Part shown: piece by piece, positions 10,750-16,872 of the stretch
How positions within the stretch are numbered: position 1 is the stretch's first letter
How the letters are laid out: the number at the start of each line of letters is the position of its first letter
NCBI GenBank assembly: GCA_029856145.1
Contig: JAHQWK010000023.1
Span: 47,999-111,998 of the forward strand
Length of the DNA stretch: 64,000 nucleotides
Direction of reading: 5' to 3'
From: Promethearchaeia archaeon
GTDB lineage: Archaea > Asgardarchaeota > Lokiarchaeia > Sigyniarchaeales > SOKP01
Notes under the pieces: generated by a model
The model's database searches: none
Told to the model about the DNA's origin: nothing
The model's input: the letters and a program-made list of their open reading frames with translations, nothing else
Position numbers and translations under genes: made by a program

Positions 10750-13608
10750 ATGGAAGTTTTTTTGAAAAGGGCTGAACGTTCTTTTAAGAGTAAGATTGGA
10801 GAAGATAAAACAAATACTATTTTAAATAATATAAAAAAAGCTACTAATGAAATTCCTGCTAAATTCAGGAGAACAATTGGTTCAGAAATACCGAAATTCT
10901 TATTTAATTACTCACAAGAGATTGAAGATGTGTCTCCTGCGATTACTGAGGGTGTTTTGAATTATATTTTCATATTTGCAGAGTCATTGAAAGATCTCGT
11001 AAATAAGGATAGAAATCAAGTAAATCAAATGTTAATAAATAGAAGTAATAGTGAAATGCGAAATCTTTCAGATTTATTAAATGCATTTGTTGAAAAAGCA
11101 AAAAAAGGTGAAGCAATAGAAAATCTCGAAACTTTTGAAGATTTATTGATATATATGGTTGGTGGAAAAGCAGAAGTCACCCAGATGAACGATGTTGAAT
11201 TATTTTTTAAGCGAGCTGATAAGAATTTTTCTGAAAGATTAGGAGAAGTAAAATTTCAATTTTATTCAGAAGAACTTAAGAAATCATTCAAACAAATCGA
11301 TGAATTACATCGAGATCAAATGAGCTCCGAAATTTCAAAATATTTATTCAAGTTCTCCCAAAATATTGATAACTTTTCTACAGAAACATTAGACAGTATA
11401 TTGGCACAAATTTTGTTATTTTCTAATTCAATAACTGATTTAGATGGAAAAACATGGGATCAAATTAATCAAGAAATAAGAAGAAGAAGTAACAATAAAT
11501 TGCATTCTTTAGTTGATTTATTCAAAGCGTTTTTAGAAGAAGCTAAAGAAGGAAATTTATTAGAAAATAACAATGAACTTGAAGATATATTAACTCATTT
11601 ATTTGGAGAAGAAGAAGAGCGAGTTCAATTTACAGATATAGAAGCTTTTTTAAAAAGAGCAGAAAAAAAATATGCATTAATTCTCGGACAAGATATGATT
11701 CAAATGCTTATGGAAGAACTATTAGATGCAATTGATCAAATTCCCGAGCAACATAGAGAGTACCTCGGATCGGATCTTGCAAAATATTTATTTAAATATT
11801 CAGAAACCGCTTCAATTCACGATCCAGAGAATTTAGAATTAATATTTAATGGAGCAATTATGTTCGCTAATTCATTGGTCGATATTGGGGATTCAAATAA
11901 GGCAGAAGTTAATCAATTCATTATAAATAGATCGAATCATAAAGTCCGTGGATTATTCGATTTATATCTAGCATTTCTTGAAAAAAATAAAGTTCGTATG
12001 CCTTTTTCTCTAGAACCAAATTTTGATGAAATCCTTGTTCATACACTGGGGAGATATAGTGGTCCGAAAGTTCTAGAGCAAGGAGGATTAATTCATGACT
12101 TATTGTTAGATCATCATGAAGAAATTCCATCAGCAATCGAGCATTCAAGTTGGGCGAAAGCTTTAATTGAAATAATCCCTCGCTATTTAGATATTCTACC
12201 AAAAGCTGAAGGAGATCGAATTTTAGACTTTTTATGGGAAAACAAATTACCAGAGGATGAAATTATTGAGAAATATAGAACTAAAATTTTGGAATTTCCT
12301 AGAGAAAAAGAAAAAACATTCATGTTCAGATTAATGAATATGCTAACAAATCAGATTTTAGTTGATGAAGTGAAAGACAAAGTATTAGCAGGATCTTTAG
12401 CTCTTAGAATCCTTGGAGGCATTTTTGTGGAAATTTTTGGTGGACGAAATGCCCAAATACGAGCAATTCGGCTTAATCAATTATTAAAAGATAGAAAAGT
12501 TTCAAATTTAGAAAATAAAAAGAAAATTGATGAGCACATTAACAAAATACTGGAAGAAGATTTGAAAGCTATTCAAAAAAGAACTATGACAATAAACACT
12601 ATTATTCCAATATTGACTAAGAAAAGATATTTCATTAAAACTTACGATATAGTTACAAAAGACTTTCCAGAATTTATTGTCAAAATGATCACTGTGAGAG
12701 AGGAGGAGCGATTGAAGGATATTGGTGAAGAATATAAGAAGCCAGGCATTTCAGGAGAGTTAATACAACTAGTTAATGATTTTTTGATTGAGCTTGAATT
12801 AGCAAGAAGATTCTATAAAAAATATTTTGAAGAAATGTATTCAATAGCTATGGATGCTCAAAAAAATATGTTAACTATTAGAAAATTCTTTAAATCTTTG
12901 GTGGAACTTAGTGACAATATAGAAGCTATTGAGTTTTTTGAGAGACCTATTGCAAATACAGAACACACGATTTACATTTCGTTATTAAAATATTTGTATG
13001 AGTGTTTACCAGAAGTGTTTGAGATAACTCGAACCATTCTTGATGAACAAGAATATCAAAAGAAGATAATGAAATTAGATACTTATCTAAGTAATTGGAA
13101 ACTAGAACAACTAAATTTAGAAATCAGAGAAACTGAAAACAAAATTAATGAATATGAAGAGATGGAAGAATGGGACGCTACAGATAAGATAAGGAATTTA
13201 ACTAAATTTCTTAATAGGGACAAAAATGAGCTTAAATTCTATGATATAATGTTTAAACTCCTCAAAGAAACAGAAAAAGCTGGTGAAATTATAAATAAAA
13301 GATTAGATTTCTCAAAAAATCTTTTAAAATTTTCAGACTCTATAAAAAAGGTACATCCCAACCTCCCAGCAGCTTTAAATGATTACTTGGAAAATTTATA
13401 TGACTTCACTCAAGAAATAGATAAAATCATAGAAGAATTAAAAAAGAAAAGTTCTTCTGGTATTATATCTCCTTTTGATTTTAGAGAAAGGAATGATGCA
13501 GCAGAAATATCAAAAAAAGAATTAAAATCTCTCTGTTCAAATGAAGATTTTATGAATCATATTAAATCTATGTTAGAAATCTCAAAAACAAATAAGTTAC
13601 AATATTAA
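10750..13608 (+). CDS. Large alpha-helical hypothetical protein with three tandem 148-aa repeats and a C-terminal coiled coil
   Basis: Repeat starts MEVFLKRAE (10750), VELFFKRAD (11194) and IEAFLKRAE (11638) are spaced exactly 444 nt; shared S(E/D)xxK(F/Y)LFxxS and RS(N)xxxxxLxDLxxAF(V/L)E motifs. Confidence 0.85.
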   Translation: MEVFLKRAERSFKSKIGEDKTNTILNNIKKATNEIPAKFRRTIGSEIPKFLFNYSQEIEDVSPAITEGVLNYIFIFAESLKDLVNKDRNQVNQMLINRSNSEMRNLSDLLNAFVEKAKKGEAIENLETFEDLLIYMVGGKAEVTQMNDVELFFKRADKNFSERLGEVKFQFYSEELKKSFKQIDELHRDQMSSEISKYLFKFSQNIDNFSTETLDSILAQILLFSNSITDLDGKTWDQINQEIRRRSNNKLHSLVDLFKAFLEEAKEGNLLENNNELEDILTHLFGEEEERVQFTDIEAFLKRAEKKYALILGQDMIQMLMEELLDAIDQIPEQHREYLGSDLAKYLFKYSETASIHDPENLELIFNGAIMFANSLVDIGDSNKAEVNQFIINRSNHKVRGLFDLYLAFLEKNKVRMPFSLEPNFDEILVHTLGRYSGPKVLEQGGLIHDLLLDHHEEIPSAIEHSSWAKALIEIIPRYLDILPKAEGDRILDFLWENKLPEDEIIEKYRTKILEFPREKEKTFMFRLMNMLTNQILVDEVKDKVLAGSLALRILGGIFVEIFGGRNAQIRAIRLNQLLKDRKVSNLENKKKIDEHINKILEEDLKAIQKRTMTINTIIPILTKKRYFIKTYDIVTKDFPEFIVKMITVREEERLKDIGEEYKKPGISGELIQLVNDFLIELELARRFYKKYFEEMYSIAMDAQKNMLTIRKFFKSLVELSDNIEAIEFFERPIANTEHTIYISLLKYLYECLPEVFEITRTILDEQEYQKKIMKLDTYLSNWKLEQLNLEIRETENKINEYEEMEEWDATDKIRNLTKFLNRDKNELKFYDIMFKLLKETEKAGEIINKRLDFSKNLLKFSDSIKKVHPNLPAALNDYLENLYDFTQEIDKIIEELKKKSSSGIISPFDFRERNDAAEISKKELKSLCSNEDFMNHIKSMLEISKTNKLQY

Positions 13609-15168: not shown

Positions 15169-16872
15169 CTATTTTTTTCTATTTACACACGCTTTGATAA
15201 AGTCTAAGTAAAGGGGGGATGGATTATACGGACGTGATTTAAATTCGGGATGGAATTGAGTACCAACCATCCAATGATCTTTTCTATCTAATTCTATACT
15301 ATTAATTATTTTTCCAGTTTCATCTCGGCTAGATACTCGCAAACCTTTTTCTTTGGCTTCAATATTTATAAATTTCTCTTGAATGTGAAATCTATGTCGA
15401 TACCGTTCAAATATTTCCTCTTGTTTATATGCTTCATAAAGCCGTGTACCTTTCTCAACAACTATTTTTTGAGCACCTAATCTCATAGTGCCACCAATTT
15501 CAGTTACTCCTTTCTGACTTTCTAAAATATCTACAACGGGATATGGAGTATTAGGATCAATTTCAGTTGAATTTGCTTTTTTTAAACCCAGATATTTTCT
15601 ACAGAAAGCTACAAAAAATAATTGAGCTCCGAAGCATATTCCAAGAAAGGGAATTTTTTCTTCCATAGCATATTCTGCTGATTTTATCATCCCTTCTACT
15701 GCTCTTTCCCCAAATCCAGGAGTAAGTAAAATACCATCACAATCTTTCAGCTGTTCCATAATATTTGTATTTCCTTCTATATTAACCATTTTCAATTCTG
15801 TTTTATACCCTAAATGAGCAGCAGCGTCTTCTAAAGCAACATTAATAGAAATATAAGAATCTGAAATGTTAAAATATTTTCCTGGCATTCCGATTTTAAC
15901 GGTTTTTTTAGCTTTTTTAAATAGTTCAACCATCTTTACCCATTCAGAGTAATTTGTTACCTCACTATAGGCAACCAATTTTGCCTTCAAATCAATAAGT
16001 TCGCAAATAAGATCTCCTAATCCCTGTTCCTCGAACAATAGAGGTAATTCATAAACGATTTCTAAATCTGGGTTAGAAATTACAGCATTTTCGGGGACGT
16101 TAGAATATAGGGATATTTTTCTTTTAATGTCATTATCTAAAGGTTTTTCGCTTCTGCCTATTATTAAATCGGGTTGTAATCCTAGACTTTGGAGCATCTT
16201 CACACTATGCTGCGTCGGCTTTGATTTCTGTTGCCCTACAGCTCTAGAATAAGGAATAAGAGTAACATGAACAAAAGCAGTTCGCTTTGGATATGCTAAT
16301 TTTAATTGTCGAAATGCTTCTAGAAATATGCTTGATTCTAAATCTCCTACTGTACCTCCACATTCAATTAATAACACATCTAAATCTTCTTTTTCAGCAA
16401 TTTCCATTAATCGTTCCTTTATTATATCTGTTACATGCGGTATTATTTGAACAGTTTTCCCCAAAAATCTTCCCTTTCTTTCACTAAGGATTGTAGAAAG
16501 ATAAATTTGGCCTGATGTTATATTATGGGATGGGTGCATCTCAATTCCTAGTATTCTAGAATAAGTGCCAAAATCCTGATCAATTTCAGAAATTCTATAT
16601 GATCTTTCATCAGATCCAGGGACTGGTCTAAAATTCCATACATCTTCGGTAATAAAACATTCTCCATGCTCAATTGGGTTCAGAGTCCCGGGATCTACAT
16701 TTAAATATGGATCTATTTTAACTACTGATACTTTAAAACCACGAAATTGAAGTACCTTACCAATACTGGCAGTTGCGACGCCCTTGCCATAGCCTATTAT
16801 AATGAAATATTATAATATTATGCCAGACATCACACCGCCCGTTACAAATACAAATTTACTACTCGAATTCAT
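15169..16872 (-). CDS. pyrG: CTP synthase, interrupted by a 30-nt insertion with an in-frame TAA (candidate intron); 557 aa after removal
   Basis: ATG 16872 MNSSKFVFVTGGVMSG-I-[30 nt]-GKGVATASIGKVL...KIDPYLNVDPGTLNPIEHGE is in frame with the 15169..16539 ORF (TVQIIPHVTD, GGTVGDLES, KSKPTQHSV, GICFGAQ, QFHPEF). The glutaminase triad is intact. Confidence 0.93.
16789..16818 (-). other. Putative 30-nt mRNA intron with a bulge-helix-bulge/loop-like splice motif
   Basis: Insert AUAUUAUAAUAUUUCAUUAUAAUAGGCUAU has a perfect 9-bp stem and a stop (16810-16812). The flanking exons pair over about 15 bp. Removal gives GGC AUA GGC AAG GGC = G-I-G-K-G. Confidence 0.7.

What the first reader, a model, noticed from the sequence alone, without database searches (positions are those of the whole stretch)
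16768..16839. Candidate bulge-helix-bulge-type mRNA micro-intron inside the CTP synthase P-loop of an Asgard-like archaeon
Seen in sequence: the mRNA reads GGC GGU GUG AUG UCU GGC AUA | AUA UUA UAA UAU UUC AUU AUA AUA GGC UAU | GGC AAG GGC GUC GCA ACU GCC. The 30-nt insert (16789-16818) contains an in-frame stop, and removing it gives GGVMSGIGKG, the conserved PyrG nucleotide-binding motif. The rest of the gene is intact, including the Cys-His-Glu triad. The fold matches endonuclease geometry: central helix GGCA/GGCU (3 of 4 pairs), 3-nt bulge UA^A flush with a perfect 9-bp intron stem (UAUUAUAAU/AUUAUAAUA, loop AUUUC), and a second cut at AU^G in a relaxed 7-nt loop. An exon-exon helix of about 15 bp (GGCGGU-GUGAUGUCU / GGGCGUCGC-A-ACUGCC) closes it. 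Cutting 2 nt after the central helix on each strand releases exactly 30 nt. The flanking codons are unusually GC-rich at third positions (ACG GGC..GGC..GGC AAG GGC GUC..GCC) for this AT-rich DNA, which suggests selection on RNA structure. Established: EndA plus RtcB splice BHB/BHL introns in archaeal tRNA/rRNA and in crenarchaeal cbf5 mRNA. Inference: pyrG is a spliced protein-coding gene, and splicing may be a regulatory switch for CTP synthesis. Alternatives are ribosomal bypassing from GGC to GGC (giving SGYGKG), a recent inactivating insertion, or an assembly error.
Basis: partly seen in the sequence, partly recalled or inferred. Interest (0 to 1): 0.95.

Follow-up and report, generated by a model that had tools for sequence, protein, structure and literature searches.

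The report
tRNA-type mini-intron splits Asgard pyrG
The only CTP synthase gene found in this Asgard (Loki-type) archaeon is broken by a 30-base hairpin shaped like a tRNA intron, so its message very probably has to be cut and rejoined, a process published for only one other archaeal coding sequence (cbf5); at least nine more genes in the same genome look the same.

Summary
Confirmed. pyrG lies on the minus strand (16872-15169) and is the only copy found in a 97%-complete Promethearchaeota genome. A 30-nt insert (16789-16818) with an in-frame stop splits the P-loop. Eleven distinct versions sit at the same site in relatives, all 30 nt and all with stops. Their stems covary, and the one register that fits bulge-helix-bulge geometry restores GGVMSGIGKG in all 11. 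Exon codons are constrained only where they pair, and the gene body is under purifying selection (dN/dS about 0.05). Ribosomal bypass, pseudogene and assembly error are disfavoured. The genome encodes two EndA paralogues and RtcB. A genome scan found nine more 28-32-nt inserts that break conserved motifs (uL11, eIF2-gamma, Elf1, UppS, Mvk, NifU and others); eight of the ten share a pentaloop ending in UC. Other Asgard pyrG genes carry such inserts at two further sites. Splicing is inferred: I found no spliced pyrG RNA. A CTP-specific switch is unsupported. Papers searched report only cbf5 (coding) and a Haloferax 5' UTR. The scan has noted this class many times on other DNA, pyrG included.

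The parts
16819..16872 (-). pyrG exon 1 (18 codons, ending in GGVMSGI, first half of the P-loop)
   Evidence: codons 6-18 nearly invariant in protein among intron-bearing relatives, pN 0.055 vs pS 0.377
16789..16818 (-). 30-nt BHB-type intron (predicted; 1-nt ambiguity with 16790-16819 at protein level, resolved by geometry)
16810..16812 (-). in-frame TAA inside the intron
   Evidence: all 11 variants carry at least one in-frame stop
15169..16788 (-). pyrG exon 2 (539 codons plus stop): synthetase and glutaminase domains, intact
   Evidence: Pfam PF06418 and PF00117; TIGR00337 from position 17; dN/dS 0.044-0.071
16821..16824 (-). 5' strand of the 4-bp central helix (GGCA, exon)
   Evidence: 41 of 44 cells paired; compensatory C-G to U-A change in L010
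16818..16820 (-). first 3-nt bulge (UA^A), predicted 5' cut
   Evidence: geometry
16795..16817 (-). 9-bp intron stem closing the pentaloop AUUUC (16804-16808)
   Evidence: 96% of cells paired, 3 pairs with changes on both sides; loop U35 and C36 at least 90% conserved
16791..16794 (-). 3' strand of the central helix (GGCU, intron; UGCU in most relatives)
16788..16790 (-). second 3-nt bulge (AU^G), predicted 3' cut, flanked by one conserved Y-G pair and then an internal loop
   Evidence: pair 15-53 kept in 11 of 11
16828..16839 (-). 5' arm of the distal exon-exon helix (codons 12-15)
16768..16780 (-). 3' arm of the distal exon-exon helix (codons 21-25 of the spliced frame)

Best explanation
The insert is a tRNA-type (bulge-helix-bulge) intron in the pyrG pre-mRNA. 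The transcript folds so that a 4-bp helix is flanked by two 3-nt bulges, held by a 9-bp intron stem on one side and by exon-exon pairing on the other. The host's two-subunit EndA cuts after the second base of each bulge, releasing exactly 30 nt, and RtcB joins the exons to restore the P-loop of CTP synthase. It is one of at least ten uniform 28-32-nt mRNA introns in this genome and is most likely spliced routinely, not as a CTP-specific switch. Shown: insert, conservation, covariation, register, selection, enzyme genes. Inferred: folding in vivo, cleavage, ligation, absence of regulation.
For: Single pyrG in a 97%-complete genome. Eleven distinct 30-nt variants at one site, all with stops. Covariation score 0.191 with 0 of 500 shuffles as high, 5 pairs changed on both sides, and slid controls at 24-62% paired against 94%. 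Across 16 excision registers, only register 0 fits BHB geometry (helix 41/44, stem 33/33, outer pair 11/11), and it gives MSGIGKGV in all 11. Exon-exon duplex averages -17.4 kcal/mol with the intron and -7.8 without, and is stronger in all 8 pairs of near relatives. Third-position similarity among intron carriers is raised in the paired exon-1 codons (0.755 vs 0.313) but not in the gene body (0.613 vs 0.615). dN/dS is 0.044-0.071. Two EndA paralogues and RtcB are present. Frameshifting 31-32-nt BHB inserts occur at two other pyrG sites in other Asgard genomes. Nine more such inserts in this genome, with exon pieces abutting in family profiles where both score. Asgard EndA is mostly two-subunit (bioRxiv 10.64898/2026.10.13.758758), the type linked to relaxed motifs (PMC2738675).
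Against: No spliced pyrG transcript was found. None of the six intronless short contigs read was a near-identical copy of an intron carrier or had the carriers' full codon signature. In this genome the central helix has an A-G mismatch, the outer helix is one pair before an internal loop, and the minimum-energy fold slips off the BHB register. The structure was derived from this sequence and the sequences are related, which inflates the covariation controls. Raw reads were not available.
Confidence: 0.9

Rival explanations
1. The intron is spliced as above, but splicing is regulated and acts as a switch on CTP synthesis, for example through a nucleotide-dependent fold or limiting EndA.
For: It interrupts the gene 18 codons in and unspliced RNA cannot give enzyme. 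The minimum-energy fold is a slipped, non-BHB alternative. A negative-regulator role was proposed for the cbf5 intron (PMC2738675).
Against: The same kind of insert is in uL11, eIF2-gamma, Elf1, UppS, Mvk, NifU, a B12-binding subunit, an FAD oxidase and a cold-shock protein of this genome. Most close relatives lack it at this site, and other lineages have it at other pyrG codons. No conserved alternative structure was seen.
Confidence: 0.12
2. The ribosome skips the insert (programmed bypass) or reads through the stop, with no RNA cutting.
For: This genome has a matching GGC-GGC codon pair 30 nt apart and a stop at the base of a hairpin.
Against: The landing GGC exists in only 2 of 11 variants, and in one of them a TAA follows it. 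Three variants end in a stop, one has tandem stops, stop type and position vary, and the insert peptide is not conserved. The inserts at the other pyrG sites and in Elf1 shift the frame.
Confidence: 0.03
3. The gene is broken (a recent insertion or assembly error), or is expressed from an internal start without the first 18 codons, as public annotations assume.
For: Public gene calls start inside or after the insert, including a 456-aa call for this gene. The genome is a metagenome assembly with 5% contamination.
Against: The insert recurs in independent assemblies whose synonymous sites are 0.67-1.9 substitutions apart. Exon 1 and exon 2 are both under purifying selection. No second pyrG was found. 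A protein without exon 1 lacks half the P-loop that solved CTP synthases keep.
Confidence: 0.03
4. The 30 nt are removed by something other than EndA/RtcB, such as a factor that recognises the shared loop, or excision at DNA level in part of the population.
For: Eight of ten inserts in this genome share a pentaloop ending in UC, against 4% of background candidates. BHB recognition is not known to need a loop sequence (own knowledge). Presence is patchy on the tree.
Against: Cut sites predicted from EndA geometry alone match the protein-restoring sites at three pyrG positions and in Elf1. The loop could simply reflect common descent or a stable fold.
Confidence: 0.04

Closest known systems
cbf5 pre-mRNA BHB intron of Desulfurococcales and Sulfolobales (Watanabe 2002; Yoshinari 2006; Yokobori 2009, PMC2738675)
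   Same: Short (16-44 nt) insert in a coding sequence at a conserved functional motif; BHB or relaxed BHB at the borders; cuts after the second base of each bulge; host with two-subunit EndA; lost in some lineages.
   Different: Here the host is an Asgard archaeon and the gene is a core metabolic enzyme. Length is fixed at 30 nt. Presence is far patchier, with at least 7 changes on the tree. At least nine sister inserts share length and mostly the loop in one genome. Splicing is not yet shown experimentally.
BHB introns of archaeal tRNAs, including the intron-rich Asgard tRNA genes (bioRxiv 10.64898/2026.10.13.758758)
   Same: Same motif and presumed enzymes; repeated gains; this genome has tRNA introns of 21-43 nt.
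   Different: The substrate is an mRNA, so synonymous codon positions have to supply the exon helix. That preprint does not mention mRNA.
BHB intron in the 5' UTR of Haloferax volcanii HVO_1309 (PMC7714728)
   Same: An mRNA processed by the splicing endonuclease at BHB sites.
   Different: That intron is untranslated and does not break a reading frame.

Membership tests
Archaeal BHB/BHL intron (EndA/RtcB-spliced) | 4-bp central helix | tested here: met
   41 of 44 cells paired; 4 of 4 pairs in 8 of 11 variants, 3 of 4 in this genome; one compensatory change
Archaeal BHB/BHL intron (EndA/RtcB-spliced) | 3-nt bulge closed by an intron-side helix | tested here: met
   first three stem pairs 33 of 33; 9-bp stem 96% paired with 3 compensated pairs
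Archaeal BHB/BHL intron (EndA/RtcB-spliced) | second 3-nt bulge closed by an exon-side helix (strict BHB) or an internal loop (relaxed BHL) | tested here: met
   met in relaxed form: one Y-G pair in 11 of 11, then an internal loop, then a 12-bp helix at 93%; a strict stacked outer helix is not present
Archaeal BHB/BHL intron (EndA/RtcB-spliced) | cutting after the second base of each bulge restores the host gene exactly | tested here: met
   register 0 is the only geometric fit and yields MSGIGKGV in 11 of 11
Archaeal BHB/BHL intron (EndA/RtcB-spliced) | host encodes EndA and RtcB | tested here: met
   two PF01974 genes and one PF01139 gene; one paralogue shows the Tyr-His-Lys pattern and the other lacks the His (residue roles from own knowledge)
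Archaeal BHB/BHL intron (EndA/RtcB-spliced) | spliced RNA or excised intron seen in vivo | tested here: inconclusive
   no spliced pyrG contig among those inspected; RNA reads cannot be searched here
Archaeal BHB/BHL intron (EndA/RtcB-spliced) | cleavage by EndA in vitro | not testable with these tools
   bench experiment
Programmed ribosomal bypass (T4 gene 60 / byp type) | matched take-off and landing codons with an open frame after landing | tested here: not met
   matching GGC in 2 of 11 variants, one followed by TAA
CTP synthase (PyrG) | synthetase plus class I glutaminase domains above the family cut-off | tested here: met
   TIGR00337 597 bits vs cut-off 463; NF003792 625 vs 308

The most novel reading that the evidence does not exclude
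Loki-type Asgard archaea carry a family of uniform, roughly 30-nt BHB mini-introns of common origin (shared UC-ending pentaloop) in many essential mRNAs. The introns are gained and precisely lost often, so EndA/RtcB splicing is a routine step of protein-gene expression in close prokaryotic relatives of eukaryotes.
Probability: 0.65. Interest if true: 0.88.

Novelty: new variant of a known kind. Interest (0 to 1): 0.74.

Why it matters
The papers I could search name one archaeal coding sequence with a spliced BHB intron (cbf5) and one 5' UTR case. An intron in the P-loop of a single-copy CTP synthase, with at least nine more in uL11, eIF2-gamma, Elf1 and isoprenoid genes of the same genome, would make mRNA splicing by the tRNA machinery a normal feature of Asgard gene expression. 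That bears on how intron-tolerant gene expression arose on the line to eukaryotes, although the chemistry is unrelated to the spliceosome. It also explains truncated gene calls in Asgard genomes (this gene is catalogued as 456 aa) and gives short, exact substrates for a direct EndA assay.

Tried and rejected
Search for a spliced pyrG transcript: two protein searches, cluster listings and seven contig look-ups, one of which returned no DNA. The intronless contigs read were not near-identical to any intron carrier and look like ordinary intronless relatives. First genome scan missed the positive control because its coding filter penalised the GC-rich flanks; discarded. Second scan ranked pyrG first and showed Elf1 but missed others. 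Monophyly of intron carriers was rejected (p-AU 4e-53, at least 7 changes). Co-conversion of flanking DNA is not supported beyond the paired codons. The sigma-70 promoter scan was uninformative for an archaeon. Literature searches for Asgard or pyrG mRNA introns returned nothing relevant; the library lacks most subscription journals.

Full report
Observation. The window carries pyrG on the minus strand from ATG 16872 to the stop at 15169. Read straight through, the frame hits TAA at codon 21. Removing 16789-16818, or the protein-equivalent 16790-16819, gives GGVMSGIGKG and an open 557-aa protein; the other 18 registers tried do not. Exon 2 matches TIGR00337 from profile position 17, so the first 16 positions are what exon 1 supplies. 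A tblastn of the joined protein finds no second copy in the genome, which is 97% complete. The 72-nt stretch is strongly structured on the coding strand (z = -5.17) and not on the other (z = -1.47). Relatives identify the host as Promethearchaeota, the Loki-type Asgard archaea.

The insert is shared and shaped by selection. Five of 75 related genomes with the region available carry a 30-nt insert at exactly this site. With further genomes and metagenome contigs there are 11 distinct variants. All are 30 nt and all contain at least one in-frame stop. On the ungapped alignment the BHB structure pairs in 94% of cells, five pairs change on both sides, and none of 500 shuffles reaches the covariation score; slid controls give 24-62%. 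These controls overstate somewhat because the sequences are related and the structure came from this one. The strongest test is the register. Scoring 16 possible 30-nt excisions by geometry alone, only one has a paired central helix (41/44), intron stem (33/33) and outer pair (11/11), and that one yields MSGIGKGV in all 11. In this genome the helix has one mismatch, but 8 of 11 variants have all four pairs. The motif is therefore a relaxed BHB.

The exons pay for the intron. The exon-exon duplex averages -17.4 kcal/mol in carriers and -7.8 in intronless relatives, and is stronger in all eight near-relative pairs checked. Synonymous positions are alike among carriers in the paired exon-1 codons (0.755, against 0.313 between carriers and non-carriers) but not in the gene body (0.613 vs 0.615); the exon-2 arm shows only a weak effect (0.457 vs 0.348). 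The Ile codon is ATA in 12 of 12 carriers and 38 of 87 others. The gene body shows dN/dS of 0.044-0.071, and exon 1 is conserved in protein while varying silently. Carriers do not form a clade: at least seven changes are needed and monophyly is rejected. That fits an old intron lost precisely many times, or repeated gain; these data do not separate the two.

Rivals. Bypass from GGC to GGC is possible in only 2 of 11 variants and meets a stop in one of them; readthrough fails on tandem and variable stops. Pseudogene and assembly error are unlikely given recurrence across independent assemblies and purifying selection. Public gene callers start these proteins inside or after the insert, which would drop half the P-loop seen in solved CTP synthases.

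Machinery and context. The genome has two EndA paralogues and RtcB and intron-bearing tRNAs. A recent preprint finds two-subunit EndA in most Asgard genomes (bioRxiv 10.64898/2026.10.13.758758), and that type is linked to relaxed motifs (PMC2738675). Other Asgard pyrG genes carry frameshifting inserts with BHB geometry at two more sites: 31 nt at codon 94 in seven genomes of the same family, and 31-32 nt at codon 46 in two distant genomes.

A genome-wide scan for BHB geometry plus frame repair ranked pyrG first and revealed an insert in the Elf1 zinc finger. That insert is conserved at 32 nt in 16 relatives, with a 30-nt form in 4 more. I then read the scan's earlier notes, which named further cases in this genome, and reran the scan for 27-35 nt. 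It returned ten inserts of 28-32 nt whose removal restores a recognisable motif: NifU, a B12-binding subunit, pyrG, UppS, mevalonate kinase, uL11, Elf1, an FAD oxidase, eIF2-gamma and a cold-shock protein. For NifU, uL11 and Elf1 both exon pieces hit one profile at adjoining positions. uL11, eIF2-gamma, UppS, Mvk and Elf1 are single-copy. I picked these ten by recognising motifs among many weaker candidates, so the count is a floor and the apparent preference for conserved motifs is biased. Eight of the ten close a five-base loop ending in UC, against 69 of 1720 background candidates; the scan did not use the loop. This points to a common origin or a shared recognition feature.

Mechanism. Most likely the two-subunit EndA cuts after the second base of each bulge, RtcB ligates the exons, and full-length PyrG is made (confidence 0.9). 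The folding in vivo, cleavage and ligation are inferred. A CTP-specific switch is not excluded but has nothing for it beyond position.

Comparison and novelty. It works like, and meets every feature testable here of, the BHB introns known from cbf5 pre-mRNA (PMC2738675). A 2020 paper lists cbf5 as the only earlier mRNA case beside a Haloferax 5' UTR intron (PMC7714728), and the 2009 paper says introns in other protein genes were only predicted. My searches found no paper on Asgard or pyrG mRNA introns, within a library that lacks most subscription journals. The scan itself has reported this class many times on other DNA, including other pyrG sites; those notes are leads, not support. I rate it a new variant of a known kind: known chemistry, but a new phylum, an essential metabolic gene, and a uniform multi-gene family. 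Interest 0.74.

Noticed in passing
L118-L124 (pyrG codon 94; G056, G075, G081, G068, G072, G062, G063): Second pyrG intron site: 31-nt frameshifting insert, central helix GTAC/GTAA, covarying stem; removal gives DQDFGTYERF in all seven. Dozens of 100-102-aa database proteins are its truncated exon-1 products.
   Followed up: yes
L112 and L113 (pyrG codon 46; G133, G143): Third pyrG site: 31 and 32-nt inserts with a fully paired central helix and canonical bulges; removal gives IDPYLNV.
   Followed up: partly
L214:1216-1247 (G000 C18 41815-41846, minus): 32-nt BHB insert splitting the Elf1 CxxC motif; conserved in 16 relatives at 32 nt, with a 30-nt form in 4 more.
   Followed up: yes
L273:542-569 (G000 C28 14741-14768, minus): 28-nt BHB insert in single-copy ribosomal protein uL11; exon pieces match Pfam L11_N positions 1-25 and 27-58. 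Relatives not checked.
   Followed up: partly
L275:601-630 (G000 C5 34200-34229, plus): 30-nt insert in the GHVDHGKTT motif of single-copy eIF2-gamma. Relatives not checked.
   Followed up: partly
L269:435-464, L270:333-364, L271:887-916, L272:266-296, L274:354-385, and G000 C6 11598-11627 (minus): Like inserts in NifU, a B12-binding subunit, UppS, mevalonate kinase, an FAD oxidase and a cold-shock protein.
   Followed up: partly
L012, L002, L028, L148, L034 (intronless pyrG, codons 12-25): Some intronless relatives keep a strong exon-exon helix (down to -19.1 kcal/mol), possibly a trace of recent precise intron loss.
   Followed up: no
window 16560-16700 (pyrG exon 2, residues about 75-92): About 16 extra residues before the DQDFG motif relative to solved CTP synthases; shared across these Asgard PyrG proteins and in frame, so a lineage-specific loop.
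   Followed up: no
window 10750-13608 plus: 952-aa ORF without any Pfam hit, with an apparent repeated N-terminal unit (FLKRAE-like segments).
   Followed up: no
G000 C8 12915-13007 minus: ARAGORN calls a tRNA-Sec, and it finds only about a dozen plausible tRNAs in a 97%-complete genome, so several intron-rich tRNAs are probably missed.
   Followed up: no
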